Source of the DNA: a virus
Lineage: Duplodnaviria; Heunggongvirae; Uroviricota; Caudoviricetes
IMG/VR virus record: IMGVR_UViG_3300013121_000010
Span: 77,903-141,902 of that record
Reading direction: 5' to 3' (one strand)
DNA length: 64,000 bases
The notes beneath the pieces are model-generated. The model had not been told where the DNA came from, made no database searches, and was given only the letters and a program-made list of their open reading frames with translations. Position numbers and translations under genes: made by a program. Below are positions 4,037 through 46,734 of the stretch, in pieces. Numbering within the stretch: position 1 is the stretch's first letter; every line of letters begins with the position of its first letter.

Positions 4037-4318
4037 TTATTTAATATCCTCTGTAAACAAACTTAGTAGACCTAAAACAGAATTAACTTTATATTTACTA
4101 AAATCAAATCCATTTTTAAAATTACAATTTGGGCAAGTAAAATTACCAGAACATATACAAAGACTATCAGTTACTAAACAATAACAGTTAATACATGCTA
4201 ATGTACTTATACAACCTGTATTATTTATTCTTGCACTATAAACAGAATTATTATACTCTTTAGCCTGTTCTTTGTTATATCCTACGTTTTTAAACGTTAG
4301 CATTTTGAATATCCGCAA
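4037..4318 (-). CDS. small Cys-rich hypothetical protein
   Basis: Many CxxC pairs; overlaps the 3-prime end of the RNR gene so may be spurious. Confidence 0.2.
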   Translation of the reverse strand: MRIFKMLTFKNVGYNKEQAKEYNNSVYSARINNTGCISTLACINCYCLVTDSLCICSGNFTCPNCNFKNGFDFSKYKVNSVLGLLSLFTEDIK

Positions 4319-7300: not shown

Positions 7301-8349
7301 TTATCAAATGTATAACCTATAATACCAGAGTGGAAAACTATTTGTGTAGAACCATCTATTTTAGTATTATCATTTATATCAGGTATTAAACCAAATAAAC
7401 TTGAACCATAATTAGAAACAAACTTGATTATTTCTTCTTCTTTGCTATTAAAGGTAAAAGTTATTCCTCTAATCTTATCTTTTGTTTTTGAGTCAGAAAA
7501 TATACATCCATCACCATACCATAAACCTAAAAATCTAGCAAAGTTTTCGTCAACTTTCCAGTTAGAATTAACCTCTTTGTGTTTCTTTTTATGATTTGGT
7601 TTGTAACAGTAAATAAGGTTAATTTTGTTTTCATCATAGTTTTTATTTACAATATAACTATAATCGCCATAAGTTAAATAATTACCAAATAATTCGTTTA
7701 AATTTATATCTTTGATTATTCCAACATCATTCCTTTTTGGAATAGCAATATAATCACCAGACCTTAAATACTCTACAGTATTCCAAGAAGGTTTTTCTCC
7801 CCACTTTAATTGTTCTTTGCTTATAGATAAAAATTTATGGTTATCGGTTACTTTAATTTCTGGTGTACCAAAACACTTTAATTTAAAGACTGTTCTATTA
7901 GAAAGCTTATTTTTATGTATTTGTTCTACATTTTCAACAGTACCTTTATGTGTAACAACCTTATCTCCAATAGATACATCACATATTTTTTTGACACCGC
8001 TATTTACAGTGAACACATTAGTGTCTTTATCAAAACAATTCGACAAACTTACATATTGATGTGGGTTTCCTATCCCATACATAGGCGAACCTTGTGGAAC
8101 AATATACTTGAAGTCTTTAAGTAAATTAAAAATATCCCCTTCTGATAGTGGCTCACTAAATTTCTTTGCTTCAATTCTAGCAAATTCTTTAGCAATACGA
8201 CTATGCATATCATCAGGGGTTTTTTCTAAAATATTACCTTCATTATCTCTTAATGCATATTTATCAACAAATACTTTAGCAGGTAATTCTTCGCCATTAA
8301 AATAAGAAAGAGACGCTTGAAGCGTCTCATCGTAGGTGTAAATTTTCAT
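4297..8349 (-). CDS. nrdJ: ribonucleotide reductase, class II-like (NrdJ-type), interrupted by two inteins
   Basis: 1350 aa; NPC...GEI catalytic-cysteine motif split by an insertion; C-terminal CPECG...CVTCKNCG zinc finger typical of monomeric class II RNR; two Hint-domain insertions. Confidence 0.8.
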   Translation of the reverse strand: MKIYTYDETLQASLSYFNGEELPAKVFVDKYALRDNEGNILEKTPDDMHSRIAKEFARIEAKKFSEPLSEGDIFNLLKDFKYIVPQGSPMYGIGNPHQYVSLSNCFDKDTNVFTVNSGVKKICDVSIGDKVVTHKGTVENVEQIHKNKLSNRTVFKLKCFGTPEIKVTDNHKFLSISKEQLKWGEKPSWNTVEYLRSGDYIAIPKRNDVGIIKDINLNELFGNYLTYGDYSYIVNKNYDENKINLIYCYKPNHKKKHKEVNSNWKVDENFARFLGLWYGDGCIFSDSKTKDKIRGITFTFNSKEEEIIKFVSNYGSSLFGLIPDINDNTKIDGSTQIVFHSGIIGYTFDKLFGRGCNGKRLNNDIYSWPKKLIENLLIGLIESDGCVTSGGSTRVVLNNRNLIESFYHLLRSHGILACITHGLPPGDYSRLSFTNNSYLKKFCKKNYFDDRLNYESKNKHQYSIEIDGIIYVRINEKEKIKYNEEYVYTLGISNTHSYNVEGLISLNCFVINSPADSYGGIHHTDEQLSHVSKRRGGIGIDISNLRPEGSPTKNSSRTSTGILSFMERYSNSIREVGQYGRRGAMLLTLDVHHPQVLDFTTVKNDRTKVTGANISLRLSDEFLNAVQNDEDYELRFPVDSKTPKISKKTKAKEVWKAIIKNAHEMAEPGLVFWDTILRNSLPDCYAAFGFKTESLNPCQPGHTKILTESGIKNLSDINIGDYIWSKEGWTKVLNKWSNGVKDVYKYSTTAGCVYCTKNHRLVVDDKNTKVEAQYAKTINIFISETELKTFDIKSSEYSSTEEVFDITVDNKSNSYWSNGCDVSNCGEICLSIYDSCRLLLLNLYSYVDNPFTANAKFNYKKFLSHAIIAQRLMDDLIDLEIESIDRILNKIENDPEPLNIKQREIELWQNIKKYCELGRRTGTGITALGDAIAACGFKYDSDESLQTVEKIYKTLKFGCYLSSIEMAKELGPFPVFNYELEKDCEFLKRMEDESLIIDEDLTLYGKDILNAMKKYGRRNIALLTTSPAGTVSILTQTTSGIEPVFMTHYFRKKKGNLQDENFRCDFTDQNGDMWMEFPVYHPKLKEWMRITGETDITKSPYYGACANDINWRKRVELQALAGKHVDHSISSTINLPNNVSVEEVATIYETAWKTGTIKGITVYRDGCRTGVLTAEKSSEIKKPQEVIRPKALDCEVHHVTVKGTQYFVLLGILNNKIYEVFAGKNGVLDKSIKNAKIVKKRGGHYHLVAADDTKEIYLAPITVTCNEEEEAVTRLTSLLLRSGTELHEIVLQLEKVSGNISSFSKAIARVLKKHIPDDTIVKEKCPECGAESMVRQEGCVTCKNCGYSKC
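5878..6258 (-). mobile_element. mini-intein 2 in RNR (about 127 aa) inserted at the NPC/GEI active-site motif
   Basis: Extein NP + C...VSN + CGEI restores the NPCGEI motif once the insertion is removed. Confidence 0.6.
6829..8037 (-). mobile_element. intein 1 in RNR (about 403 aa) with a LAGLIDADG homing-endonuclease domain
   Basis: Starts CFDKDTNVF (Hint block A) and ends ...ISLN followed by Cys; two LAGLIDADG-like motifs LGLWYGDGC and LIGLIESDGC. Confidence 0.65.
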
Positions 8350-16735: not shown

Positions 16736-16797
16736 ATTTGTGATAGCTCAAGCGTATTTATAACAACAATAAATACACGAACGCTATCACTTTGAAG

Positions 16798-16869
16798 TAC
16801 CCTAGCTAGGATTTGAACCCAGTCTAATTCTTTCGTAGAGAATCGTGCTATCCATCACACTCCAAGGGC
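16798..16869 (-). tRNA. tRNA-Arg (ACG)
   Basis: Anticodon stem ATTCT/AGAAT with loop CTACGAA; T-arm CTGGG-TTCAAAT-CCTAG. Confidence 0.5.
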
Positions 16870-19939: not shown

Positions 19940-20216
19940 AAATTGTAATCTCTTTTGAATTTGGAAGAATAATTAATCCATAATCCCATTCTTGTAATAA
20001 GTAAAAAATACACATTGATATATTTATATCATTTGCTATACTTTCACTTACTAAAATTTCAAACTCTCTAGTTATTTCACAAGCATTATTTTTAAGATAG
20101 TCCTCACAAAAACTTTGTAAGTCACCGTGCAAATATTTAGAACGCCATTCGTTTGGAAGCTTTTCTTCCATAAGTTTGGTTACATGAGCTAAAACTTCAC
20201 TAGACGCCTGCGGCAT
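19917..20216 (-). CDS. hypothetical protein
   Basis: ORF only. Confidence 0.3.
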   Translation of the reverse strand: MPQASSEVLAHVTKLMEEKLPNEWRSKYLHGDLQSFCEDYLKNNACEITREFEILVSESIANDINISMCIFYLLQEWDYGLIILPNSKEITIYENNNLR

Positions 20217-21261
20217 TTCTTATACTCCTTGAACTCAAATCTACAGGAACAAAATCTTCTTGAAATTCAAAGAAATTCTCATAACCACTAATAAGCTTTT
20301 CATTACCTCTTGGGAAAACAGCAAATTTGTTATTGTATATAAAACAATATTCAAGTAATTTACCTAATGATTCTTTATGTCTTATTATTCTATTAGCAGT
20401 ATCAACACCTACTAAATAGGTAGAATTTATTGGGTATAAGTGAAATTTATCTATAAATAAAGGAGCTTTAGTAAAACAAACAGCATTTATATTATTTTCT
20501 TTATACAAAACACTTCTATTTCTATAATCAAGATAATCAAGATTAGGTTTATCGAAATTTTGTACAGATATGTCTAACGTTACTTTTTGTTTAAATTTAT
20601 TAGCCGAATAATTTATTATAGCACGATGACCATCATGTAATGGATTAAAAGAACCTGAATATATAAGATTGCTGCATTTTTCACTATTTATAATAACTTG
20701 CTTAAGAGCAAACTGTTCTTTAGTATCAAAAAATAATCTTGGTGTATCTTCTTCGTGCTGGAAATAGAATTTTTCAGATTTTACACAATCCCATTCATCT
20801 TCTGATAAATGAAAAGTTCCCATTTCAAGACCATCTAGAATTACTTCACTTACTAATTCTTCTTCTTCTTGTCTGCTTCTATTTTCAAGCAATTTAAAAC
20901 TTGTACTACAAATAACTTCACGTTCTAAATATGTAATGTGAAATGAGTGTTCTCTACCAACCCTCTCTACATTACTAGAACGCAAACTTGCACAACAAGC
21001 AAGAGAAACGCACTCATTGAAATCATAACCCAAATCTAACATCTTTTGCATACCGGCCATTGCAAGTTGTCTTGATGTTAGTTGTGAATTATATTTTTCA
21101 GGTTTAAAACCAAGAAAATCATCTACACATTTTGTAGAATATGGAACGTAAGCACCGGCAAAATAGCTTGACGCACCACCATTTCTTAGTATTTTACCTA
21201 TAGCTTCTGTGCCACCGCCAGTAATAGTCAGAAAAAGTTTTTTATCCATAATTAATACCAT
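20200..21261 (-). CDS. nicotinamide-nucleotide adenylyltransferase domain protein (NatV-like)
   Basis: GSFNPLHDGHRAII HxGH nucleotidyltransferase motif in the C-terminal half; lies beside nadV. Confidence 0.65.
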   Translation of the reverse strand: MVLIMDKKLFLTITGGGTEAIGKILRNGGASSYFAGAYVPYSTKCVDDFLGFKPEKYNSQLTSRQLAMAGMQKMLDLGYDFNECVSLACCASLRSSNVERVGREHSFHITYLEREVICSTSFKLLENRSRQEEEELVSEVILDGLEMGTFHLSEDEWDCVKSEKFYFQHEEDTPRLFFDTKEQFALKQVIINSEKCSNLIYSGSFNPLHDGHRAIINYSANKFKQKVTLDISVQNFDKPNLDYLDYRNRSVLYKENNINAVCFTKAPLFIDKFHLYPINSTYLVGVDTANRIIRHKESLGKLLEYCFIYNNKFAVFPRGNEKLISGYENFFEFQEDFVPVDLSSRSIRNAAGV

Positions 21262-21525
21262 ATTAGATTATTGAATAGTTATCTCATAGCCGCGATTCTG
21301 TTAATGTTTATGGTCGCCCATATAACATCGTTTAATATTTATCTGTTTAGTAAACTAAACCGGAGTATTAACTTCCGCGCCTTAACCCGAATATCATAGG
21401 CCCGCAATCCGCCTAATTCTGTTTAAGTTGCTGCCATCTGCGTGATACAAACGAAACCACGATTAAAACGGGTTTCTCTCACGGTCTGCGGAGCAGTCAC
21501 GAACTTCCTCGGGGTTTCCCCCGCA

Positions 21526-24006
21526 TTAAACCGAATAACTTTTCAATAATCTTTGCTTTATATAACTTAAATTTGTTGTTTTCTCAGAATATCCATTGTA
21601 AAATACTGTCTGTAAACAATCTAAACTGTTATATATTTTTTTACTTACAGTTTTATAACTCCCGTTTTCTTTAATGAGAGATAAACGCCCTCTTTTTGAA
21701 GTCTTAAAAGATTGTCCAACAGGCTCTTTATAAACATCATATTCTTCATCATCAATTGCAATACTACTACACTTTATAGCAAACCCCATTGTATCTCTAT
21801 CTAATTTTTGTAAAAGACCACCGCCACTTCCAAATGTTAAATTATCTAGTGACCACTTGTTTGTTAAACAAACTGTATCAAGAATATTGAGTAAACTATT
21901 TCTATTAATTCCATCACCCTGAATAACCCTTACTTTAGGATTTAGAACTTTAAATCCTTTGGAGTTAGTAGTGTAACCAAACTTTTCTCCTAGAACATTT
22001 AAGATTTTAGGTAGAACTTCAAGTGGGTCGCCAGAGTTACCACTAATAGATATTCTATGGTTTCTACGAACTATAATAGCCCCACTAGGAACAGTAACAC
22101 AATATACTTTACCATCATAATTTTTAAAAGTTTTTTCTATACCTTGCCCATCTATAAAATCTTGTTTTATAATATGAACAGTATGTACATCATTAAAAAT
22201 ATCTTTTCTATTATCTTTAGCTATACTGTATTTAGTTTTATACCCAGAAAAACAAGCTAATAATTGCACTATTTCAGCATTAATACCAATAGTTGTATCA
22301 TATTTAAATCTTTTATCACTTCTTCTTGTACCATCCCAATAAGAACACTCTTCTATAAATTGTTGACAGTATTTATAATCTATGTTATTAATAATATCAT
22401 TAACCCATTTAAAATCTTTAAAAATACTAAAAGGTACTTTTACATATATAGTTTTTTGATTCTCTCTTTCTTTTTCTTGATGTATAGAATATTCATAACA
22501 TCCTTCTTCACAAATTTTTATAATACGTTCTATTTTTCTTTGTTTGGTAAAATTAAATCTAATCTTAGTAAAACCATTTTTAAATGAATTTTCTTGATTA
22601 TGATTACTTTCATAAGAACCATCTGCTTGAAACGCTATTTTAATAGCGTGTTCTGGAGTAAATAAAATTGGATTTAAACAAGTTAATTTACCAGCCATTA
22701 TATGATTTCTATCATGGTAATACTTAATATCTTTAGCTTGTTTTACAAATATTTCCCCCTTTTTATTTTTAGTATAACATCTATGATTTGGAGTAACTAA
22801 TAAGTCTACCCCACGTTTATCATTAAAAATACTTACCATTTCGCCAATATAATCTTGGCATATGTATTTTACTGGTTTAACAAACTCTATATTACCATTA
22901 TTATATTGAGCTACATATGTATTAATATTGATACTGTTAAATAACTTCCATCCATCATTTGTTAATATTTCAGTTTTTTCATCATAACAGTCTGGCCTAA
23001 CTACAAGCACACCATCCCTATTTAAAACTTTATCTCTTAGTTCTCCACCCCAAATATTTTCACAAGCATTAAAAATGTCATAGCTATCACTAACACAAGC
23101 AACAAAACCTTCTGGATACACTTTAAGCATATTTCTGTATGCCTCTACTTCTCTGCTTTTACCCCACGAAGTAATAGTTGAATGTTCACTTGCCGGTATA
23201 GAGCTTCCACAACTGGAAGTTGTTTCATCAGCATAATATTCATCTAAAAGTTGAATACCTGCAAGAGTATCAGTACCTTTAAAATTTAATAGGTGAGCAG
23301 CAGCACCAATAGCTGCCGTTTCCATACTAGAAACACCTCTAAAACCGAAATCATGCAGTTTATAATCTACATAACTTTCTGGTTCGTCAGAACTAAGTCT
23401 ATGAAACTTTAAAAGTTTCTTTTTAAGGTAATAAGATTGAGAAGCTACAGTAATAGGATACCAAACTTGCATAAGTAAGGTTTCCAAATAATTTGTAAGC
23501 CAAAAGAACCTATCATCTGTATTTTCAATAATCATTAGGACATTTCCTACTGGAACTACTGAACCTTCTGGAACCGCGTTAATAATAACTGGTAAACGCC
23601 CACCGTATTCTTTATACATTTCAGCCCAACCTTGAGTGTTGAACTTGCAATTTGGCATATATTTAGAATGAAAAGCTTCAGCATCTTTAATATCATTCAT
23701 GTTAAATACATGACCAGTTAAATGCTTTTCAATTAAGTATTGTAGACCGAAAAATACGGTTTCTCCATTACCAAAATCATCTTTACCACCACGAGCTTCT
23801 AAATAAGAATAAATTCCTTTTGTTCCTGGTGGGTATTGCTCATAGTGTGATAACTTATAACCGTCTGTTTTAAGAATTAAGTTCACTGTAAAGTTCCTTT
23901 GCTGAATTTTCCCAACTAAACATTTTAGCAGTTTTAATGCCTTCGGCATTTTCAACGCCTGTCTTGCTCTGTAAGAGATTATACATGACTTCGGCAACGC
24001 TGTCAA
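21526..24006 (-). CDS. nadV: nicotinamide phosphoribosyltransferase (NadV/NAMPT) interrupted by an intein
   Basis: LILKTDGYKLSHYEQYPP N-terminus; the RPD-SGDP active-site motif is split by a 318-aa Hint insertion; the true start is probably an internal Met near 23949 (MPKALK...). Confidence 0.8.
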   Translation of the reverse strand: MTALPKSCIISYRARQALKMPKALKLLKCLVGKIQQRNFTVNLILKTDGYKLSHYEQYPPGTKGIYSYLEARGGKDDFGNGETVFFGLQYLIEKHLTGHVFNMNDIKDAEAFHSKYMPNCKFNTQGWAEMYKEYGGRLPVIINAVPEGSVVPVGNVLMIIENTDDRFFWLTNYLETLLMQVWYPITVASQSYYLKKKLLKFHRLSSDEPESYVDYKLHDFGFRGVSSMETAAIGAAAHLLNFKGTDTLAGIQLLDEYYADETTSSCGSSIPASEHSTITSWGKSREVEAYRNMLKVYPEGFVACVSDSYDIFNACENIWGGELRDKVLNRDGVLVVRPDCYDEKTEILTNDGWKLFNSININTYVAQYNNGNIEFVKPVKYICQDYIGEMVSIFNDKRGVDLLVTPNHRCYTKNKKGEIFVKQAKDIKYYHDRNHIMAGKLTCLNPILFTPEHAIKIAFQADGSYESNHNQENSFKNGFTKIRFNFTKQRKIERIIKICEEGCYEYSIHQEKERENQKTIYVKVPFSIFKDFKWVNDIINNIDYKYCQQFIEECSYWDGTRRSDKRFKYDTTIGINAEIVQLLACFSGYKTKYSIAKDNRKDIFNDVHTVHIIKQDFIDGQGIEKTFKNYDGKVYCVTVPSGAIIVRRNHRISISGNSGDPLEVLPKILNVLGEKFGYTTNSKGFKVLNPKVRVIQGDGINRNSLLNILDTVCLTNKWSLDNLTFGSGGGLLQKLDRDTMGFAIKCSSIAIDDEEYDVYKEPVGQSFKTSKRGRLSLIKENGSYKTVSKKIYNSLDCLQTVFYNGYSEKTTNLSYIKQRLLKSYSV
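22036..22989 (-). mobile_element. intein in NadV with a LAGLIDADG-like endonuclease domain
   Basis: VVRPD + C YDEKTEILTNDGW ... ISISGN + SGDPLEV; FQADGSY LAGLIDADG-like motif. Confidence 0.6.
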
Positions 24007-27386: not shown

Positions 27387-27456
27387 AATTGTCTCCTTTA
27401 TTCAAAACATATTCTTCCCAGGTTTGCTGCTAAACTACTTCGCGTTATCTCCAAAG

Positions 27457-27527
27457 TGCGATATACCGTAATCGAAACGGTGACTAAAATTTGGTAAATT
27501 TTTATTTTTCCACTAAACTAATATCGC
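27457..27527 (-). tRNA. tRNA, anticodon uncertain (loop TTACCAA)
   Basis: Acceptor GCGATAT/ATATCGC; T-arm ACCGT-TTCGATT-ACGGT; AT-rich body. Confidence 0.4.
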
Positions 27528-39200: not shown

Positions 39201-39229
39201 ATTATACCAGGAACTTAGCGTTCTGTCAA
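39201..39229 (-). promoter_or_regulatory. sigma70-like promoter TTGACA-17-TATAAT (minus strand) inside the 3-prime end of the Ro60 gene
   Basis: Reverse complement reads TTGACAgaacgctaagttcctggTATAAT. Confidence 0.55.
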
Positions 39230-40780
39230 GTCCGACATTTCCTTTGCATATCTTAAAATTCCGTCGCTCCATCCACCTAAGATATAAGTTCTGTCGTATA
39301 CTTCTGGCATAATAGTATCAGTATATCCAGCGACCTGCACAAGATATACATTTACCTTTGGATTGACGTTCTTTCTATAGGTGTTCACCAACATAGGAAC
39401 ATCAATACAATATGAATGATACCATAAATACTTTGAGTATTCATCTGGGTTCCTACCATAAAGTCCACCATGACCAGCTTGCATATCACTATAGATGAAA
39501 ACATTATCCCAATGTTCAGCTTTAGCTATAGCATCACGCCAAAACAACCAAATTCCATTTTCAGTTGATTTACCAATTCTGTTAGCTAAACTATTAGCAT
39601 TTTTTAAATCATCAAAAATACTAGAATTTTTGCGAATACTGAAAGTTTCCAGTTTATCACCAAAAACACCTAAATATCCATCATTAGAAACCTTACCAGT
39701 AATAATACCAGTTAAGTTCGCAATTTCAGATACCTTAACAGAACCATATTGACTAGTAGTTGTACCTTGTGCCGAACCACTATTATCGCAAAGCGACATA
39801 GTACGTCCTTTAAACTGAGGTAGTGAATGCAAGGAAATATTCAGGCAGTTTTCAATTGCATCCAAAACACTACCAGGAGCATTTACAGCTTTCAGTTCTT
39901 TGTAAGCCGTCCAATACCTAAACGGCAGTTGCTTACCTTTTTCGGCAGTTTTAACCAACTTATCTAGAACAACTTCCATATTAGCATTATTTTCAACAAA
40001 ATTTCTCAAATTGCGAAGTAATGCCATGTGCCCCATAACTGGAACGCATTCATCCCAACTTTTACCTTGAGAACGCATACTTTCCCAAGTTTCAGTATTT
40101 TTCAAAGTACCCTTTACAAGCCCATCAATAGCTGGTGTAGGAACAGGGTGAACCAAGTTAATAACATCTACTGTCTTAACTTCACGATTCTCCATTTTGT
40201 ACTTAGCAAGTTCATACTCACTAAATGTTGTTAAAACATAAGCTAAGGCTCGCTTTAAAGAGCTAGGGATAGCCACGCCTTTGAATGCGGACTTGTGATA
40301 AGCCACACAAACAGCAGGTTCATCCGCCCTCTTAACTATTTCCTTTGCATATCTGCGTATTAATTGAGTGCCTTTACTACCTTTATGGTTTGCAGCCCTT
40401 ACCAAAATAACTTGTGGTGTAGTTCTGATATTATCAGTATTACGCAAATGAGCGGCAAGTTCTAGAGTTTGTTTAACACTAAAATCTAAAGCCTTATCAA
40501 TACACTTCTCAAGAGTATTCTTAGCAGTATCACCTTCTAGCTCTACCAAAACCTTACCAAGTTGCTTAGTTAGGTCAAACTTAACCTTAAAAGTAGGAGA
40601 AGCCTTTTGAGTTTCTCCATAATAAGTTGGTTCGCCAAAGAAACAGCTTGCTGCTGCAACACGAAGTTTATGAATTGGATTGGAAATATCAAAGGATGTT
40701 CCATCCATAAAATTACGATGAGAGTTCTTATGAACTCTCTTTTCGTTTAGTGAGTTTACTCTTTTAGAATTTACAGCCAT
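39215..40780 (-). CDS. rsr: Ro60/Rsr orthologue (TROVE domain plus C-terminal vWA with MIDAS)
   Basis: N-terminal TROVE-like ...AAASCFFGEPTYYGE...; C-terminal vWA with DxSGS MIDAS (LCDNSGSAQG); 521 aa, matching Ro60 domain order and size. Confidence 0.6.
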   Translation of the reverse strand: MAVNSKRVNSLNEKRVHKNSHRNFMDGTSFDISNPIHKLRVAAASCFFGEPTYYGETQKASPTFKVKFDLTKQLGKVLVELEGDTAKNTLEKCIDKALDFSVKQTLELAAHLRNTDNIRTTPQVILVRAANHKGSKGTQLIRRYAKEIVKRADEPAVCVAYHKSAFKGVAIPSSLKRALAYVLTTFSEYELAKYKMENREVKTVDVINLVHPVPTPAIDGLVKGTLKNTETWESMRSQGKSWDECVPVMGHMALLRNLRNFVENNANMEVVLDKLVKTAEKGKQLPFRYWTAYKELKAVNAPGSVLDAIENCLNISLHSLPQFKGRTMSLCDNSGSAQGTTTSQYGSVKVSEIANLTGIITGKVSNDGYLGVFGDKLETFSIRKNSSIFDDLKNANSLANRIGKSTENGIWLFWRDAIAKAEHWDNVFIYSDMQAGHGGLYGRNPDEYSKYLWYHSYCIDVPMLVNTYRKNVNPKVNVYLVQVAGYTDTIMPEVYDRTYILGGWSDGILRYAKEMSDLTER

Positions 40781-41109
40781 TTTTAAATCTCCTAATCCTA
40801 GATTTCTAACCTTTCTTTAATAAGTTTTGTAAAATAATCGAATGCTATCTGTTTAGCTTTTTCAATACCTTCATCTACTGGACAAAGAACAATTTTTGTT
40901 TTTATAACTAGAAATTGGGTCCATTACCTTATAACATTCAGAAAGAGTATGTGGATACCATCCTTTAAAGATTTTCATATTATCTAACCTTTCATTTTAA
41001 AAGATATTCTTAGAGAACATAACTATAAAGTGTTTTTAATCCCAATTTTTTGATGGACGGGATTTTCAATTTTAAATGAAGTAACTCTATATCTCACATC
41101 TAAAAATAA

Positions 41110-41184
41110 GTGGACCTTGAGGGAGTCGCACCCTCTATCAGAATTTGCAGGATTCCAAATTTACCTCTAAAAAGGCCCATTTTG
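41110..41184 (-). ncRNA. tRNA-like RNA with non-canonical T-loop TGCGACT and anticodon-like loop CCTGCAA (Cys-like GCA); lies upstream of rsr
   Basis: Acceptor GGGCCTT/AAGGTCC; T-arm GAGGG-TGCGACT-CCCTC (G in place of the universal U55); C at position 33 of the anticodon loop. Confidence 0.45.
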
Positions 41185-41433: not shown

Positions 41434-41546
41434 ATAAAATTAAGCTAGTAGGTCAGGTAACGCTCCTGCAACAACGGATTAACAGTCCGCCCGAAAAACT
41501 TCTTTCATCCTACTAATATGAGAGGAATCCTCTCATTTGTTCTTTC

Positions 41547-41575
41547 ATTATACCGGAAGCTTTCCTTCCTGTCAA
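41547..41575 (-). promoter_or_regulatory. sigma70-like promoter TTGACA-17-TATAAT (minus strand) with a structured roughly 95-nt leader before tRNA-Leu
   Basis: Reverse complement reads TTGACAggaaggaaagcttccggTATAAT; the leader holds hairpin GAGAGGAUUCCUCUC and a long-range stem TAGTAGG...CCTACTA. Confidence 0.55.
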
Positions 41576-41589
41576 GCCCCATCTCTAAA

Positions 41590-41960
41590 AATTTTTAAAG
41601 CGTAGCTTTACCATAAAACGGAGTTTTTAACTCATTAAACCTATCAGCATCAAAGTTTAAAATAAAATCCGTAGTACCATCATCAAAGATATATTCTTTA
41701 TCGCCGATTGATACTGAACATGTACGCACACTTATTATAAGCAACGTATTTACCAACTTCGATAGAACTTCCAGCTAAATCTAACATATCTTTACAACTT
41801 TCTTTTCCTGAAAACCTTTATATGTTTCTTTAAGTGTAACACTTAAAACTTTAGAGTCATCACCGTTAGAATCTTTAACGAGAACCTCAAGTTCTCCGTC
41901 TAGCTTTTCAAGTTCTTTGATTAAGTCTTTAACCAACATAGTGCTATACACTCCTTACAA
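41590..41960 (-). pseudogene. decayed fragments of the CPIALAIKEK-family / MLDSVGKK-family gene pair
   Basis: Minus-strand frames encode ...FDADRFNELKTPFYGKATL (matches the C-terminus of ORF 43889-44185) and MLDLAGSSIEVGKYVAY (matches the N-terminus of ORF 43563-43895), interrupted by stops. Confidence 0.45.
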
Positions 41961-42053
41961 CTCAAGAGTTACGACAAACGGGGTTTTTAGTAACCAGTCG
42001 TTACCTTCATCAAAGTTATTAACAAAATTCTTTTTCTTTTTTGCTTGAAAATA

Positions 42054-42140
42054 AACAGTCCCGAATAAAGGAATTGAACCTCTTGACCGCCACCATACTT
42101 AATAGGTCAACTGTTTTACAGACAGCCGTATGGGATAGCC
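42054..42140 (-). ncRNA. tRNA-Tyr (GTA)-like gene lacking a canonical D-arm, with a large variable stem-loop (paralogue of 44204-44288)
   Basis: Anticodon stem GCTGT/ACAGT with loop CTGTAAA; only about 10 nt (ATCCCATACG) between acceptor and anticodon stem; variable stem TTGACC/GGTCAA. Confidence 0.4.
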
Positions 42141-42174
42141 GGGGATTAAGTAGCGCAATCAGGACTCGAATCAG

Positions 42175-42247
42175 CACCATCAGCAGGAGTCGAACCCGCA
42201 TAGAACTGTTTAGAACACAGACACACTATCCGTTGTGTTATGATGGC
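42175..42247 (-). tRNA. tRNA-Arg (TCT)
   Basis: D stem ACAC/GTGT; anticodon loop GTTCTAA; T-arm GCGGG-TTCGACT-CCTGC. Confidence 0.5.
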
Positions 42248-42347
42248 GTTTTCTTAGGTATTCCTTTTAATTTTTATTCCCTAAGTGGCAAAACTTTAGT
42301 ATTAGAAGGCTTCTGTGACCAACATAACTAAAATCTTGTCAAAGTGT

Positions 42348-42420
42348 TAGATACTGGAGTCGCACCAATCAGTCCTACCTTATGAGGGTTGGTTGAGCCT
42401 ACGCCCATCTGGCTTGTTCA
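42348..42420 (-). ncRNA. tRNA-Met (CAT)-like with T-loop TGCGACT and a mismatched acceptor stem
   Basis: Anticodon stem AACC/GGTT with loop CTCATAA; T-arm ATTGG-TGCGACT-CCAGT; paralogue at 44488-44560. Confidence 0.4.
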
Positions 42421-42423
42421 TTC

Positions 42424-42452
42424 ATTATACCGGAAGCATCGCTTCCTGTCAA
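42424..42452 (-). promoter_or_regulatory. sigma70-like promoter TTGACA-17-TATAAT (minus strand)
   Basis: Reverse complement reads TTGACAggaagcgatgcttccggTATAAT. Confidence 0.55.
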
Positions 42453-42453
42453 G

Positions 42454-42524
42454 TCCCCATTGCTGGAATCGAGCCAGCTTCTTATCCGTGTCATAGATAC
42501 ATTCTACCATTGAACTAAACGGGG
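42454..42524 (-). tRNA. tRNA-Val (GAC), second copy
   Basis: Anticodon stem TATCT/GGATA with loop ATGACAC; T-arm GCTGG-CTCGATT-CCAGC. Confidence 0.45.
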
Positions 42525-42529
42525 GTTAA

Positions 42530-42610
42530 GCAGGTTTGTGACAAATCGAATGCCCTAGCTTTCGCAACTGTTTTGGAGGCAGTTTCCCATCCCACTGGGG
42601 AGCAAACCTG
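42530..42610 (-). tRNA. tRNA-Trp (CCA) with an 8-bp terminal helix and a long variable region
   Basis: Terminal stem CAGGTTTG/CAAACCTG; D stem CCCC/GGGA; anticodon loop CTCCAAA; paralogue at 44561-44640 has terminal stem CATATTTG/CAAATATG (compensatory). Confidence 0.45.
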
Positions 42611-43230
42611 TATTACATTGGAAGGATTATTGATTACCTTCAACCATCCTTAAATCCGATATTGTTCAGCCATACACTTATAGAGTAGCTAGTTCTATAA
42701 TTAACGTGTAGCTCGTTTGGTTACAAGCAAAGGAAAGCAGACTTCAACATTGTTCTTATTCCTTACCACCCTCACATCAGGTTGGCCAACCCAATGCTAT
42801 TAGTGCTTTATACCGAATTTACATTCTGAACGTTAGTAGGACACTTTTCAGTGTACTCCCAACTGTATTTAGGGCAGTCAACCCTATTTTCTACCACAAT
42901 GTAAGTAGCCCCGCATGGAAGTCGAACCATGTTCCCAAGATTAACCTACTACTATTAGTTTCCTAATCAGAAATATTTTTATTTCTTTGTAGTCTGGACT
43001 ATATCATCAACCAAATTGGTTGTTTCGCGTTTAGTCTCTGAGGAACCCTTTCGGTTTCCTGCTGATTGCCCAATATTTTAGATTGTCACGATTGTAATCG
43101 TACTAAAATCTCTAAGGGGTTTCCAGCATATAGCGAAATTCATTTTACATATTACTATGTAAACGCTCTTATTTTATGGAATCAAGTCTTGTGCTAATCC
43201 AGTTAAAGCTTCGGAGCCATTTTCTTCTTA

Positions 43231-43259
43231 CATTATATCAGATGCTTCGCATCTTGTCA
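43231..43259 (-). promoter_or_regulatory. sigma70-like promoter TTGACA-17-TATAAT (minus strand) firing into the ORF-free 42610-43225 region
   Basis: Reverse complement reads TTGACAagatgcgaagcatctgaTATAAT. Confidence 0.55.
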
Positions 43260-43553
43260 AGTTCTCTCTATTGTAAAACTAATTTCTCTCAATTTGTTAA
43301 AATTTGCTGTATCAAAATTCTTAATAAACTTATCAACTTTATTACAATCTTTAATAGAAGTAACTTTATATCTCTTCTTAGTATATCTATCTATAAATAT
43401 TTCAATAGACCCAGAATCACCAACAATTGCTGTTTTATGTAGCTTTTCTTTAATAGCTAAAGCAACTGGGCAAAATTGACATATATCCAGTGACTTTATT
43501 TTATTTTTAGCCTGTTCAATATGCTTACGCTTAACTTCAATTTTAATACTCAT
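43257..43553 (-). CDS. CPIALAIKEK-motif family protein (paralogue A2)
   Basis: KRKHIEQAKNK...CQFCPVALAIKEKLHK; three intact paralogues plus one decayed copy. Confidence 0.5.
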   Translation of the reverse strand: MSIKIEVKRKHIEQAKNKIKSLDICQFCPVALAIKEKLHKTAIVGDSGSIEIFIDRYTKKRYKVTSIKDCNKVDKFIKNFDTANFNKLREISFTIERT

Positions 43554-43562
43554 AATAAATCC

Positions 43563-43895
43563 TTAATCGCTAAAATCTAACACACCTTTATGTAACCACT
43601 TTTCTATACACTTTTTAAGTGTACATGAATTTGGTATACCATTAAAAAAATCTTTTACAATTTCTAGCGGTTCAACCACTACAAACTTTCCTGCTTCTTT
43701 AAAAGTTGTAATAATTTTAATTGTTAGTTGTGGTTTATAGTCTACGCTAAGTCTTTGAATTTTAACCTTATTTTTATTTTCATCAATATCAATAACTTTT
43801 CCGGTTATCATTCCATATTCAGCGTCAACATTACCTTTACCCCCATAAGAGATAAAATCACCAATATTAACCTTTTTACCAACAGAATCTAACAT
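43563..43895 (-). CDS. hypothetical protein (MLDSVGKK family)
   Basis: Translationally coupled to the upstream paralogue; a fragment homologue lies in the 41590-41960 pseudogene. Confidence 0.45.
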   Translation of the reverse strand: MLDSVGKKVNIGDFISYGGKGNVDAEYGMITGKVIDIDENKNKVKIQRLSVDYKPQLTIKIITTFKEAGKFVVVEPLEIVKDFFNGIPNSCTLKKCIEKWLHKGVLDFSD

Positions 43896-44185
43896 AGTTT
43901 TACAACTTCCAATGTAAGATAAAATGGTGTTTTCAATTCATTATATTTTTCACCATCAAAAGATTCTACAAAATCTTTAACGTGCAAATTGCCATAACTA
44001 TAACGCTTATCATCTATGAAGATTCTAGCACCACTATCAACATCAACCCTCTTATGAGTTTTCTCTTTAATAGCTAGAGCAATAGGGCAGCATGAGCTTA
44101 AAACAATACCATTTTTATGTCTAATTTTCTTTGCTCTTTCAATATGGCGTTTAAGAACTTTTACTTTAATCAACTTCATACCCAT
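43889..44185 (-). CDS. CPIALAIKEK-motif family protein (paralogue A1)
   Basis: KRHIERAKKI...SCCPIALAIKEKTHK. Confidence 0.5.
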   Translation of the reverse strand: MGMKLIKVKVLKRHIERAKKIRHKNGIVLSSCCPIALAIKEKTHKRVDVDSGARIFIDDKRYSYGNLHVKDFVESFDGEKYNELKTPFYLTLEVVKLC

Positions 44186-44203
44186 TCCTTTCTTTTAGTG
44201 CCA

Positions 44204-44288
44204 ACCAAGGGAATCGAACCCCCTGCCGCCACCATACATATTAATGGCAGTTGATTTACAGTCAACCGTATGGGATAGCTGGCTTAAG
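44204..44288 (-). ncRNA. tRNA-Tyr (GTA)-like gene lacking a canonical D-arm (paralogue of 42054-42140)
   Basis: Acceptor GCCAGCT/GGTTGGC; anticodon stem GTTGA/TCAAC with loop CTGTAAA; variable stem CTGCC/GGCAG enclosing an 18-nt loop; T-arm GGGGG-TTCGATT-CCCTT. Confidence 0.4.
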
Positions 44289-44359
44289 TCTCGCAGGCAA
44301 GAATCGAACTTGCATTTTGAGCTTATGAAGCTCACGAATTGCCATTACTCTACCGCGAA
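44289..44359 (-). tRNA. tRNA-Met (CAT)
   Basis: Acceptor TTCGCGG/CTGCGAG; anticodon stem TGAGC/GCTCA with loop TTCATAA; T-arm GCAAG-TTCGATT-CTTGC. Confidence 0.5.
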
Positions 44360-44360
44360 G

Positions 44361-44433
44361 TAACCACGGTCGGTCTTGCACCGACATCTGACAATTTAGA
44401 AGATTGCCGCTCTATCTATTAAGCTACGTGGTC
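44361..44433 (-). tRNA. tRNA-Arg (TCT)-like with T-loop TGCAAGA
   Basis: D stem GCTT/GAGC; anticodon stem GCAAT/ATTGT with loop CTTCTAA; T-arm GTCGG-TGCAAGA-CCGAC (G55). Confidence 0.45.
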
Positions 44434-44448
44434 GTGTTTTGTTCTTTC

Positions 44449-44477
44449 ATTATAACAGAGGGAAAACCTCTTGTCAA
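44449..44477 (-). promoter_or_regulatory. sigma70-like promoter TTGACA-17-TATAAT (minus strand)
   Basis: Reverse complement reads TTGACAagaggttttccctctgtTATAAT. Confidence 0.55.
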
Positions 44478-44487
44478 GTGGCAGATA

Positions 44488-44560
44488 TTGGAGTCGCACC
44501 AATCAAATTAACCTTATGAGGGTTAGTCGAGCCTTCGCCCATCTGCAAGCATATTTGTGA
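44488..44560 (-). ncRNA. tRNA-Met (CAT)-like with T-loop TGCGACT (paralogue of 42348-42420)
   Basis: Anticodon stem AACC/GGTT with loop CTCATAA; T-arm ATTGG-TGCGACT-CCAAT. Confidence 0.4.
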
Positions 44561-44640
44561 GGAATCGAACCCCTTAGCGTTTAGCAACTGTTTTGGAGGC
44601 AGTTTCCCATCCCACTGGGAAGCAAATATATGAGCCGTAA
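44561..44640 (-). tRNA. tRNA-Trp (CCA), paralogue of 42530-42610
   Basis: D stem TCCC/GGGA; anticodon loop CTCCAAA; T-loop TTCGATT. Confidence 0.45.
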
Positions 44641-44649
44641 AACGGCAAG

Positions 44650-44741
44650 CGGAAAGTAAGGGAATCGAACCCTCATTGCATTTTCAGGTGCAACCTAGTT
44701 TTCAAGACTAGTGCGACCTACCAATAGTCGCCAATCTTTCC
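44650..44741 (-). tRNA. tRNA-Ser (TGA), type II
   Basis: D stem GCGAC/GTCGC; anticodon stem CTAGT/ACTAG with loop CTTGAAA; variable stem TTGCA/TGCAA; T-arm GAGGG-TTCGATT-CCCTT. Confidence 0.55.
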
Positions 44742-44780
44742 ATTTATAGGATTTTGTCCTACTTTGTATTATATCGGAAG

Positions 44781-45089
44781 TTACGGTTTATGTAAAGTGT
44801 CCCTAGCAATTTTAAATTTAATTGGGCGAGCTTTATTAAATAAACCGTTATCAAAATTACTAATAAAATTATCAATTGCGGAAACATACCTGTTTCCTAA
44901 AACTTCGTATACTTTACCATCTATATTAATATCTTCTGGAGATATAACATAAACTTTTTTATGAGTCTTTTCCTTAATTGCTAATGCAATTGGACAAGAA
45001 TTAGAGCTAACGCAATCATATTTTTGTGCAATTTTAATTGCATCTTTAATATGTTTTCTAGTAACTTGAATTTCAATCATATGTTTCAC
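44781..45089 (-). CDS. CPIALAIKEK-motif family protein (paralogue A3)
   Basis: RKHIKDAIKI...NSCPIALAIKEKTHK. Confidence 0.5.
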   Translation of the reverse strand: MKHMIEIQVTRKHIKDAIKIAQKYDCVSSNSCPIALAIKEKTHKKVYVISPEDINIDGKVYEVLGNRYVSAIDNFISNFDNGLFNKARPIKFKIARDTLHKP

Positions 45090-45408: not shown

Positions 45409-45419
45409 TTGTCTTTTTC

Positions 45420-45448
45420 ATTATAGCAGATGGTTTACCATCTGTCAA
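45420..45448 (-). promoter_or_regulatory. sigma70-like promoter TTGACA-17-TATAAT (minus strand) upstream of tRNA-Leu
   Basis: Reverse complement reads TTGACAgatggtaaaccatctgcTATAAT. Confidence 0.55.
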
Positions 45449-45450
45449 GG

Positions 45451-45521
45451 GGCCGAAGGGGTGAATCGAACACCCGTAGTAAATTTACAAGATTTACGTC
45501 CTACCACTGAACGACTCCGGC
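45451..45521 (-). tRNA. tRNA-Thr (TGT)
   Basis: Acceptor GCCGGAG/CTTCGGC; anticodon stem TAAAT/ATTTA with loop CTTGTAA; T-arm GGGTG-TTCGATT-CACCC. Confidence 0.55.
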
Positions 45522-45535
45522 TAACTTACTCTTAC

Positions 45536-45564
45536 ATTGTACCAGACGTTTCGTATTTTGTCAA
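45536..45564 (-). promoter_or_regulatory. sigma70-like promoter TTGACA-17-TACAAT (minus strand)
   Basis: Reverse complement reads TTGACAaaatacgaaacgtctggTACAAT. Confidence 0.5.
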
Positions 45565-45902
45565 GAGCAAATTTCTTCAACACTAATCTCTTCGCTATAA
45601 TAACCGTTTGATTCTCCTATCCACCTAGTTGTTACTGTAGAATCATCAACAAAAAAAGTTATAAGTGTTATTGTTTTACTTCCATGTCCCAATTCATCAC
45701 TAAATTGTTTAGACATGTGAGTAAAATCTTCTATAACTTTACCTTTTAAGTTTTTGATATTACCATTAATATCAACAAGCCTAACACTTTCACAACAATC
45801 TTGTTTATGGTAAATAAGAAAAACACGACCAGATTCAGTCTCTACTCTTATTTGATGGTCATATTCATCAACATCAATATATTTAATTGTTTCGCCAATC
45901 AT
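45561..45902 (-). CDS. hypothetical protein
   Basis: ORF only. Confidence 0.35.
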   Translation of the reverse strand: MIGETIKYIDVDEYDHQIRVETESGRVFLIYHKQDCCESVRLVDINGNIKNLKGKVIEDFTHMSKQFSDELGHGSKTITLITFFVDDSTVTTRWIGESNGYYSEEISVEEICS

Positions 45903-46392: not shown

Positions 46393-46734
46393 AAGTGGAC
46401 CGGGCGGGTACTGCCCCCGCGTACTAAAATAAATTTAAAGATTTGAATAATATACAGGTTTCTTTAAGATTTTAAGGTAATCTTATAACCTACCTTACGA
46501 TTTGAATTTTAACTATTAAAGGTTTTAAGTTAAAACCACTCTAATTAAAGAGCAAATGAGTAATCGACGTTTTTGTTGCTCTTACGAGCAACTTTAGTGC
46601 TTGTTGCACTCAAACCACGAACACTGAACATACTATCGTTTGCTGTTACTTTTTTGACTGTTTTTAGGTAGCCTCAGCCTCTACCACCTGCCAGCACTTT
46701 AAATTTAAGCTAGGCGAATCTATTTCCGGCCCAT

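What the first reader, a model, noticed from the sequence alone, without database searches (positions are those of the whole stretch)
41590..45089. A 100-aa paralogue family (motif C-x2-CPIALAIKEK-HK) interleaved with tRNA genes, plus decayed copies
ORFs 43257-43553, 43889-44185 and 44781-45089 share K-R/K-K-H-I-x-x-A-K, CPIALAIKEK(T/L)HK and FxxFDxxxFN(K/E)L blocks. A frameshifted remnant at 41590-41960 preserves the C-terminal FNELKTPFY block and an MLDxxG fragment of the co-transcribed partner gene 43563-43895. The family has been amplified and has decayed inside the tRNA cluster, which suggests a function tied to tRNA biology or to a mobile cassette. I do not recognise the family.
Basis: seen in the sequence. 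Interest (0 to 1): 0.6.

Follow-up and report, generated by a model that had tools for sequence, protein, structure and literature searches.

The report
Uncharacterised small phage protein family beside tRNAs
Three real, diverged copies and two broken copies of a very common but unstudied small phage protein sit among this phage's tRNA genes, but the same family lies far from tRNAs in other phages, so the tRNA link looks positional rather than functional.

Summary
ORFs 43257-43553, 43889-44185 and 44781-45089 (minus strand) are true paralogues (41-45% identity, BLASTP E 1e-14 to 1e-18).

The family is phrog_19191. It has no Pfam or NCBIfam model. It is very common in metagenomes (10,971 clusters at 50% identity).

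Members are about 85 aa and basic (median pI 9.5). One Cys-Pro at a helix start and an F-x3-F-D motif are near-invariant. The AlphaFold model is confident (pLDDT 90.6) and matches no solved structure. CxxC is not a family feature; only one of the three window copies has it.

In this phage clade the genes form family-partner-family modules at the ends of tRNA transcription units driven by consensus promoters. A close relative (89-94% identical in the flanking DNA) keeps the second module intact, so the window copy was destroyed by deletions.

In about 14 unrelated contexts the family lies among small early genes, in up to 11 tandem copies. tRNAs are never adjacent and lie within about 6 kb in only two contexts. 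A tRNA-specific role and a mobile cassette are therefore not supported.

Biochemical function is unknown. My best guess is a dispensable host-interaction protein with a reactive cysteine.

The parts
44781..45089 (-). Family paralogue C (102 aa from GTG 45089; 99 aa from ATG 45080). It stands alone between tRNA-Gln(ctg) and tRNA-Ser(tga), in the unit of the promoter at 45420-45448.
   Evidence: ORF. phrog_19191 E 2.2e-9. Family HMM E 6.6e-25. Identical protein P0001 on a 148,730-bp JGI contig. RBS AAAGGA upstream.
43889..44185 (-). Family paralogue B (98 aa; the likely true start is ATG 44179, giving 96 aa). It is the first gene of the intact module and lies directly downstream of a Tyr(GUA)-like tRNA gene.
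   Evidence: phrog_19191 E 8.8e-7; E 6.7e-21. P0002 is 100% identical. RBS spacing favours 44179. AlphaFold model pLDDT 90.6.
43563..43895 (-). Partner gene (110 aa). Its start overlaps the end of B by 7 nt. It is the middle gene of the module.
   Evidence: ORF. Homologues sit between family genes in L008, L009 and L018. Only a weak precomputed DUF7205 hit. No Pfam hit in my own scans.
43257..43553 (-). Family paralogue A (98 aa), the last gene of the intact module. It is the only copy with CxxC (CQFCP). Its 3' end overlaps promoter P3.
   Evidence: phrog_19191 E 1.9e-8; E 9.3e-22. P0003 is identical.
41955..42053 (-). Remnant R2: the C-terminal ~25 codons plus stop of a family gene (KNFVNNFDEGNDWLLKTPFVVTLEL*). 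The N-terminal two-thirds is missing, and a decayed Tyr-like tRNA sequence abuts it.
   Evidence: tblastn against the L009 family protein, whose C-terminus is FIEHFDNEEDRFLKTPFTVTLEL. Family HMM E 0.003. 72-74% DNA identity to L009 and L018.
41781..41951 (-). Intact, unrelated 56-aa gene (phrog_5861) inserted between R2 and the partner remnant. It reuses the partner's RBS and start region.
   Evidence: E 2.7e-8. Alignment to L018, where family and partner genes are directly adjacent.
41731..41787 (-). Partner-gene remnant: the first 19 codons (MLDLAGSSIEVGKYVAYNK), then out-of-frame sequence running to a stop after 29 codons.
   Evidence: 84% identical to L009 partner residues 1-19, E 5e-7. 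Partner HMM E 7e-4. Frames shown.
41595..41735 (-). Remnant R1: the 3' ~141 nt (C-terminal ~45 codons plus stop) of a family gene. An internal deletion of about 645 nt joined it to partner codon 19, in a different frame.
   Evidence: 94.3% DNA identity to L018:832-970, the 3' end of an intact 99-aa family gene at L018:705-1004. 46% amino-acid identity to B residues 55-89.
44449..44477 (-). Promoter P4 (TTGACA-17-TATAAT, 12/12) heading the unit tRNA-Arg(tct), tRNA-Met, Tyr-like tRNA, B, partner, A.
   Evidence: Member of the 44-nt repeat family D1, six copies. tRNAs.
43232..43260 (-). Promoter P3 (12/12), marking the downstream boundary of the intact module. It drives the intron-containing tRNA-Lys.
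   Evidence: Identity between the window and L010 ends just after it.
42424..42452 (-). Promoter P2 (12/12) heading the unit that ends in the decayed module.
41547..41575 (-). Promoter P1 (12/12), immediately downstream of remnant R1. It drives tRNA-Leu(tag) and tRNA-Asp. The same promoter follows the intact modules in L009 and L018.
42057..42606 (-). Old segmental duplicate (63-69% identity) of 44197-44626. It carries tRNA-Arg(tct), Tyr-like, CAU-anticodon tRNA-like and Trp-like sequences upstream of each module.
   Evidence: blastn. Repeat families D5, D7 and D10.

Best explanation
The ORFs are genuine paralogues of phrog_19191, a very widespread, uncharacterised family of small phage proteins.

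Family features: about 85 aa and basic. The predicted fold is beta-alpha-alpha-beta-beta-beta-alpha-beta. A Cys-Pro at the start of the second helix and an F-x3-F-D motif are near-invariant.

Organisation (shown): in this uncultured myovirus-like phage (contig of about 149 kb) and its relatives, the genes form family-partner-family modules. The modules sit at the 3' ends of tRNA transcription units driven by consensus sigma-70-type promoters. They are therefore probably made from tRNA-mRNA co-transcripts.

History (shown): the locus ancestrally held at least two modules. The second was wrecked by deletions. One deletion of about 645 nt joined partner codon 19 to roughly family codon 43. Another removed the 5' two-thirds of the other family copy. 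A second partner-like gene present in the relative L018 is absent here. The tRNAs were kept.

Interpretation of the tRNA adjacency: it is positional. Both tRNAs and these genes are accessory cargo in a promoter-dense, recombination-prone early region.

Mechanism (inferred, not shown): the protein is a dispensable, fast-turnover host-interaction factor. It would use a basic surface and a helix-dipole-activated cysteine thiol, possibly together with the invariant Asp, to bind or modify a host macromolecule. It probably acts in pairs or as a dimer.
For: Real family:
- phrog_19191 hits for all three copies and for 68 of 68 relatives.
- The profile search finds 10,971 clusters at E<=1e-3 and 703 at E<=1e-10.

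Fold:
- AF2 pLDDT 90.6, pTM 0.83.
- The only fold matches are uncharacterised Gordonia phage proteins.

Conservation over 232 relatives: Cys 231/232, Pro 230, Ala 231, Asp 231, Phe 229 and 227.

Basic character: median pI 9.5, and 85% of members are above pI 8.

Module synteny:
- L008: tRNA-Met, Tyr-like tRNA, family, partner, family.
- L009: family, partner, family, then the same promoter.
- L018: family, partner, 71-aa ORF, family, partner-like gene, then tRNA-Leu, tRNA-Asp and the TROVE gene, as in the window.

Decay:
- R1 is 94% identical to the 3' end of an intact L018 gene, with a sharp breakpoint.
- L009 carries an in-frame TAA in its second copy.

Transcription units: five 12/12 and three 11/12 promoters on the minus strand; none lies between the upstream tRNAs and the family genes.

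No general tRNA link.

Recurrent multi-copy state: 11 tandem copies in L003, at least 5 in L002, 3 in the Keelan locus (4 places in its genome), 2 in L001.

Natural two-domain fusions: P0013, P0019 and P0069.
Against: - No experiment or characterised homologue bears on the biochemical role.
- The invariant Cys could be mainly structural, as a helix N-cap. The one substitution seen in the 232-sequence set is Asn, which is a good N-cap residue. A divergent 147-aa copy in the L003 array also has Asn there.
- I had no model coordinates, so proximity of the Cys and the Asp is untested.
- In this clade the genes always travel with tRNAs, and the phage invests heavily in RNA functions (TROVE/Ro60-like protein, tmRNA, RNA ligase). 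A clade-specific RNA role is therefore not excluded.
- The context sample outside the clade is small (about 14 contexts out of about 11,000 clusters).
- Co-transcription is inferred from promoter positions only.
Confidence: 0.6

Rival explanations
1. The family acts on tRNA or RNA, for example as a tRNA chaperone, a protector against anticodon nucleases, or a thiol/sulfur carrier for tRNA modification. On this view it is placed in tRNA operons so that it is made together with its substrates.
For: - In four related phages the modules directly follow tRNA genes inside promoter-defined units.
- The proteins are basic.
- The phage also carries a TROVE/Ro60-like protein, a tmRNA and an RNA ligase.
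- The Cys-Pro at a helix start superficially recalls the CPxP motif of TusA (resemblance from my own knowledge).
Against: - No adjacent tRNA in about 14 independent contexts; only two have any tRNA within about 6 kb.
- Annotated Gordonia and Tunturiibacter phage loci show none.
- The 11-copy array has no tRNA in its locus.
- Profile comparison with E. coli TusA gives probability 0.1%.
- The module is dispensable: it decayed in the window while the neighbouring tRNAs stayed.
Confidence: 0.12
2. The module is a self-mobile cassette that inserts into tRNA clusters. The remnants would be scars of excision or failed transposition.
For: - Presence/absence differences between close relatives, including a clean 345-nt indel of a partner-like gene.
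- Units are bounded by 44-nt promoter repeats.
- Genuine mobile elements lie next door: a group I intron in tRNA-Lys, polymorphic between samples.
Against: - No endonuclease, transposase or integrase domain in the family, the partner or the 56-aa ORF.
- No inverted terminal repeats.
- The breakpoints look like simple deletions. They are not at repeat boundaries, and I saw no target-site duplication in the alignment.
- Elsewhere the family occurs as ordinary tandem gene arrays.
Confidence: 0.05
3. The proteins are small zinc-binding (CxxC) proteins.
For: - Copy A has CQFC.
- About 31% of relatives have a Cys three residues before the invariant Cys.
Against: - B and C lack CxxC.
- Only 14 of 68 relatives have C..CP, and 14 of 68 have a single Cys in the whole protein.
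- There is no second Cys/His pair. The only other conserved His alternates with Asp at a helix capping-box position.
Confidence: 0.03
4. The ORFs are chance open frames in AT-rich spacer DNA between tRNAs and do not encode proteins.
For: They are short, lie between RNA genes and have no curated annotation.
Against: - Thousands of homologues share conserved motifs.
- The predicted fold is confident.
- Ribosome-binding sites are present.
- Copies B and C and the partner gene have identical DNA in L010, an independent sample.
Confidence: 0.01

Closest known systems
PHROG family phrog_19191 (unknown function), represented in cultured phages by 'hypothetical proteins' of Gordonia phages (e.g. Keelan gp76-78, Orchid gp103, Pupper gp220, Yvonnetastic gp183/184) and Tunturiibacter phage Tunturi_3 gp41
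   Same: Full-length HMM match. Same length class. Same CP[IV]ALA and F-x3-F-D motifs. Same predicted fold (BFVD matches with TM 0.6-0.76). Often several copies per genome.
   Different: The window copies carry a 6-9 residue longer helix 1 and loop before the Cys. They are paired with a 110-aa partner gene and embedded in tRNA operons. None of this is seen in the Gordonia phages.
Small ORFs interleaved with the tRNA cluster of T4-like phages (organisational analogy, from my own knowledge of the T4 tRNA region; not tested here)
   Same: Small protein genes of unknown or accessory function sit between phage tRNA genes and are expressed from the same early or middle transcripts. This phage is T4-like in having an rIIA homologue.
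   Different: No sequence relationship was found. The PHROG annotation gives no function such as Cef.
TusA/SirA-type sulfur carriers (CPxP cysteine at a helix N-terminus, about 80 aa, feeding tRNA thiolation)
   Same: Similar size, alpha/beta architecture, and an invariant Cys-Pro at the start of a helix.
Pfam DUF7205 (for the partner gene only)
   Same: A weak precomputed hit for the window partner and a normal one for its relative P0242.
   Different: My own hmmscan gives no hit for the window partner even at E<=10, and 13.6 bits against a 27-bit cut-off for the L018 paralogue. DUF7205 is itself uncharacterised.

Membership tests
phrog_19191 | Significant full-length match to the family HMM | tested here: met
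   E 1.9e-8, 8.8e-7 and 2.2e-9 over profile positions 2-80/85 of 91. 68 of 68 relatives also match, best E 5e-20.
phrog_19191 | Shared core motifs and fold with cultured-phage members | tested here: met
   CP[IV]ALA and F-x3-F-D are near-invariant in 232 sequences. Foldseek BFVD hits to Gordonia phage proteins have E 8e-5 to 8e-4 and TM up to 0.76.
Any Pfam-A or NCBIfam family | Score above the curated cut-off | tested here: not met
   No hit above cut-off for the three copies or for 68 relatives.
Zinc-ribbon / CxxC metal-binding proteins | Two conserved Cys/His pairs | tested here: not met
   There is only one invariant Cys. C..CP occurs in 14 of 68 relatives, and B and C lack it.
TusA/SirA sulfur carriers (PF01206) | CPxP motif, profile similarity and the two-layer beta-alpha-beta-alpha-beta-beta fold | tested here: not met
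Mobile genetic cassette (homing endonuclease gene, transposon or MITE-like element) | Encoded nuclease or recombinase, or terminal inverted repeats and target-site duplication | tested here: not met
   No such domains. No flanking inverted repeats. The indels relative to L018 are simple.
tRNA-associated protein family | Consistent genomic linkage to tRNA genes across unrelated genomes | tested here: not met
   No adjacent tRNA in about 14 independent contexts; only two have any tRNA within about 6 kb (36, 37, 77, 78). The sample is small compared with 10,971 clusters.
Known anti-phage defence components (PADLOC-DB) | HMM match | tested here: not met
   No hit at E<=0.1 for the family or the partner.
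DUF7205 (partner gene) | Score above Pfam's gathering cut-off (27 bits) | tested here: inconclusive
   Precomputed weak hit. My scans give none for the window protein and 13.6 bits for the L018 paralogue.

The most novel reading that the evidence does not exclude
phrog_19191 could be a new protein fold with a reactive, helix-capping cysteine that phages deploy in diversifying tandem arrays (up to 11 copies). That would make it a previously unrecognised class of counter-defence or host-takeover effectors. In this clade it may have been recruited to tRNA operons to act on RNA-targeting host defences.
Probability: 0.15. Interest if true: 0.65.

Novelty: new member of a known kind. Interest (0 to 1): 0.33.

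Why it matters
The window itself adds three members and two pseudogenes to an already catalogued, uncharacterised phage family, so the finding as stated is modest.

Three things make it useful:
1. It shows the tRNA association is local synteny, which removes a tempting but unsupported functional guess.
2. It flags phrog_19191 as a large piece of viral dark matter. The family has about 11,000 clusters at 50% identity and no Pfam model. Its predicted fold is confident and has no solved-structure counterpart. One cysteine and one aspartate are invariant, and tandem arrays recur. These are concrete, testable handles.
3. The comparison with close relatives documents how small accessory genes are lost from phage tRNA regions by simple deletions while the tRNAs are kept.

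Tried and rejected
- megablast of the region and tblastn of copy B against 50,697 phage records: no match. A K-rich HMM consensus query also found nothing, probably because of low-complexity masking. Real family members as queries did work.
- AFDB Foldseek: library not available.
- Genome-collection scan (GTDB representatives) with CP[IV]ALAIKE: no relatives. The pattern is narrow, so this says little about bacteria. One context (L014/L015, with LexA, ImuB, GST and LigD Prim-Pol) may be chromosomal.
- Metagenome scan: only 4 new loci.
- Exact look-up of P0003: not on record.
- TusA-like sulfur carrier: rejected.
- CxxC zinc site: rejected.
- His14 as a metal or catalytic ligand: it alternates with Asp (175 H, 49 D). 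It sits at position N3 of helix 1, after a conserved Thr N-cap, which is the pattern of a structural capping box (inference).
- AcrIIA4 family hit (E 0.0058 in 1 of 68) and the scattered Pfam hits: treated as chance.
- Partner against PDB sequences: only E 0.22.
- Y-RNA-like Ro-binding motif search near the TROVE gene: nothing found.

Full report
**1. What is there**

All genes in this part of the window are on the minus strand. ORFs 44781-45089 (C), 43889-44185 (B) and 43257-43553 (A) are present as described. They align end to end with 30 invariant columns.
- Pairwise BLASTP gives 41-45% identity, E 9e-15 to 8e-19.
- For A vs B, 100 shuffles of B reached at most 18.9 bits against 50.4 bits for the real pair.
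- All three have plausible ribosome-binding sites. For B the better-spaced start is ATG 44179.
- Identical or near-identical proteins were called independently on a 148,730-bp JGI contig and in two Logan assemblies.
- A family HMM finds only these three full copies in the whole 64-kb window.

**2. The remnants**

- 41787-41731 encodes MLDLAGSSIEVGKYVAYNK. This is 84% identical to the first 19 residues of the partner protein of a related phage (L009).
- 41714-41613, in another frame, encodes ...VSIGDKEYIFDDGTTDFILNFDADRFNELKTPFY, which is 46% identical to B residues 55-89 (E 3e-8).
- A second family remnant, KNFVNNFDEGNDWLLKTPFVVTLEL*, lies at 42053-41955.

**3. Comparison with relatives shows decay**

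- L008 carries tRNA-Met, a Tyr-like tRNA, then family, partner, family. This matches the window's intact module B-partner-A.
- L009 carries family, partner, family, followed by the same hairpin-spacer promoter as in the window. Its second family copy has an in-frame TAA.
- L018 is 89-94% identical to the window across tRNA-Leu(tag), tRNA-Asp and the TROVE gene. There it carries an intact set: family, partner, a 71-aa ORF, family and a partner-like gene.
- Window 41734-41594 is 94.3% identical to the last 141 nt of L018's intact 99-aa family gene. Upstream of a sharp breakpoint the similarity ends. The window sequence there continues the start of the partner gene.
- The window has therefore lost about 645 nt: most of the partner gene, the 71-aa ORF and the 5' 125 nt of the family gene. 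It also lacks L018's partner-like gene (a 345-nt indel).
- The tRNA-bearing segments upstream of the two modules (42057-42606 and 44197-44626) are only 63-69% identical. The duplication is therefore old, and what is recent is the loss.

**4. Transcription layout**

Five perfect (12/12) and three 11/12 TTGACA-17-TATAAT promoters lie on the minus strand. Six belong to a 44-nt repeat family with a hairpin in the spacer.
- No promoter lies between the tRNAs and the family genes.
- C follows tRNA-Leu, tRNA-Pro and tRNA-Gln.
- B, the partner and A follow tRNA-Arg, tRNA-Met and the Tyr-like tRNA.
- The decayed module follows tRNA-Arg and a Tyr-like sequence.
- Co-transcription with tRNAs is an inference from this layout.

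**5. What the family is**

- All three copies match phrog_19191 (unknown function), as do 68 of 68 relatives.
- There is no Pfam, NCBIfam or PADLOC hit.
- An exhaustive profile search finds 10,971 clusters at 50% identity with E<=1e-3 and 703 with E<=1e-10. Nearly all are 76-115 aa and none carries a functional name (only 'hypothetical protein').
- Among 50,697 cultured phage records I found it only in Gordonia phages of several genera and in one Acidobacteria phage, always annotated as 'hypothetical protein'.
- The AlphaFold2 model is confident (pLDDT 90.6, pTM 0.83). Its secondary-structure order is beta1, alpha1, alpha2, beta2, beta3, beta4, alpha3, beta5.
- The only structural matches are uncharacterised Gordonia phage proteins in BFVD. 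AFDB could not be searched.

**6. Conserved features**

Counts below are over 232 relatives, in copy B numbering.
- Cys33 231/232, Pro34 230, Ala36 231, Leu37 216, Ala38 222, Phe72 229, Phe76 227, Asp77 231, Pro87 224, Ile15 231.
- The Cys-Pro opens helix 2.
- The residue three positions before it is Cys in only about 31% of members. In the window only copy A has CxxC. A zinc-binding CxxC is therefore not a family trait.
- His14 alternates with Asp and sits at the N3 position of helix 1, after a conserved Thr. That pattern suggests a structural capping box (inference).
- The proteins are basic: median pI 9.5, and 85% are above pI 8.
- Natural two-domain fusions exist: P0013, P0019 and P0069.

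A plain helix cap would normally also tolerate Ser, Thr, Asp or Asn. The near-absolute conservation of Cys therefore suggests a functional, helix-dipole-activated thiol. This is an inference. The only substitutions I saw at this position are Asn: 1 of the 232 aligned sequences, plus a divergent 147-aa copy in the L003 array.

**7. Is it linked to tRNAs?**

Outside this phage clade I examined about 14 independent contexts: L001, L002/3, L004/5, Keelan, Tunturi_3, L012/13, L014/15, L016/17, Pupper, Sixama, L023, L024, L027 and L028.
- None has a tRNA next to the family gene.
- Only L012 (one tRNA, 4 kb away) and L017 (two tRNAs, 1.7 kb away) have any tRNA within the flanks.
- The usual setting is a run of small unannotated early genes, sometimes near nucleotide-metabolism or repair genes.
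- The family is often multi-copy: 11 tandem copies in L003, at least 5 in L002, 3 in the Keelan locus, and 2 in L001 and L007.
- The partner gene has few detectable relatives. One of them (L020) has no family gene beside it.
- The tRNA adjacency and the partner are therefore features of this clade, not of the family.

**8. Mobile cassette?**

- No nuclease or recombinase domain is present, and no inverted repeats flank the modules.
- The differences from L018 are simple deletions.
- The neighbourhood is nevertheless dynamic. Directly after promoter P3 the window and L011 carry a tRNA-Lys(UUU) split by a group I intron. L010 is otherwise 99.3% identical but has an intron-less, divergent tRNA-Lys followed by a Cys-rich ORF.

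**9. Verdict**

These are new members and pseudogenes of a catalogued but uncharacterised phage family. Their tRNA neighbourhood is best explained as shared residence in a promoter-dense accessory region.

The biochemical role is unknown. My committed guess is a dispensable host-interaction protein that uses a basic surface and a reactive cysteine and probably works in pairs. My confidence is about 0.25 for that part and about 0.9 for the identity and evolutionary account.

Noticed in passing
window 42906-43218 (-); intron 42945-43183: A group I intron (Rfam RF00028, 67.8 bits, E 5.5e-17) splits a tRNA-Lys(UUU) gene between anticodon positions 34 and 35. ARAGORN and the 10-kb Rfam scan both missed it. 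The joined exons are called tRNA-Lys(ttt) by ARAGORN only at 95% of its default threshold, because the T-loop has 8 nt. The site is polymorphic: L011 has the intron allele, while L010 has an intron-less, divergent tRNA-Lys followed by a Cys-rich ORF (METKKCVTCKNEK...)..
   Followed up: partly
window 44199-44285, 42057-42143, 44476-44545, 42342-42411, 42528-42610, ~41100-41170 (all -): Several tRNA-like genes were not called at default settings.
- A Tyr(GUA)-like gene with a long variable arm, plus a decayed copy.
- A compact ~67-nt CAU-anticodon tRNA-like gene with an encoded CCA, plus a decayed copy.
- A second Trp(CCA) gene with a long variable arm and compensatory acceptor-stem changes relative to 44549-44629.
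- A Cys(GCA)-like gene with a UGCGACU T-loop.
The anticodon assignments are from my manual reading. Relaxed ARAGORN calls the CAU and Trp ones as read, but gives other or no assignments for the Tyr-like genes (???, Asn) and the Cys-like gene (Ala/tgc). It finds nothing for the decayed CAU copy.
   Followed up: partly
window 41537-41580, 42414-42457, 43222-43265, 44439-44482, 45410-45453, 45526-45569 (-): Six copies of a 44-nt promoter repeat. Five have a perfect TTGACA-17-TATAAT, and each has a short hairpin in the spacer. The same element is present in the related contigs L009 and L018.
   Followed up: partly
window 39215-40780 (-): A 521-aa TROVE-domain (Ro60-like) protein lies between two tRNA groups and is conserved in the same position in L018. 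No Y-RNA was identified. A simple search for the Ro-binding motif found nothing.
   Followed up: partly
window 46393-46732 (-): Rfam tmRNA match (50.1 bits, gathering score 47, E 1.4e-17). ARAGORN did not call it.
   Followed up: no
window 42612-42905 (-): About 290 nt with no convincing ORF and no Rfam match, lying between the tRNA-Lys 3' exon and the second Trp-like gene. It is transcribed from promoter P3 if the layout is as inferred.
   Followed up: partly
L009 1141-1143: The second family copy of this related phage has an in-frame TAA, after which the conserved C-terminal motifs continue in the same frame. It could be a nonsense pseudogene or possibly read-through.
   Followed up: no
L009 ~553-566 and ~925-940; L018 ~109-125 and ~688-704; window ~41943-41957: A conserved ribosome-binding-site element with a small hairpin (GGAGTGCGAAGCAC or AGTGAGCGAAGCGAAC) precedes module genes in the relatives. 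The window's 56-aa ORF reuses a degenerate copy of it.
   Followed up: no
window 4297-8349 (-): Ribonucleotide reductase large subunit interrupted by an intein with a LAGLIDADG domain.
   Followed up: no
window 20200-24006 (-); L012 4948-7745: The window carries an NAD-salvage pair: an NAMPT homologue and a cytidylyltransferase-like protein. In the unrelated 315-kb contig L012/L013 a phrog_19191 member sits exactly between the equivalent two genes.
   Followed up: no
window 27456-27527 and 16797-16869 (-): ARAGORN calls tRNA-Gly(acc) and tRNA-Arg(acg). An A34 glycine tRNA is unusual for bacteria (from my own knowledge).
   Followed up: no
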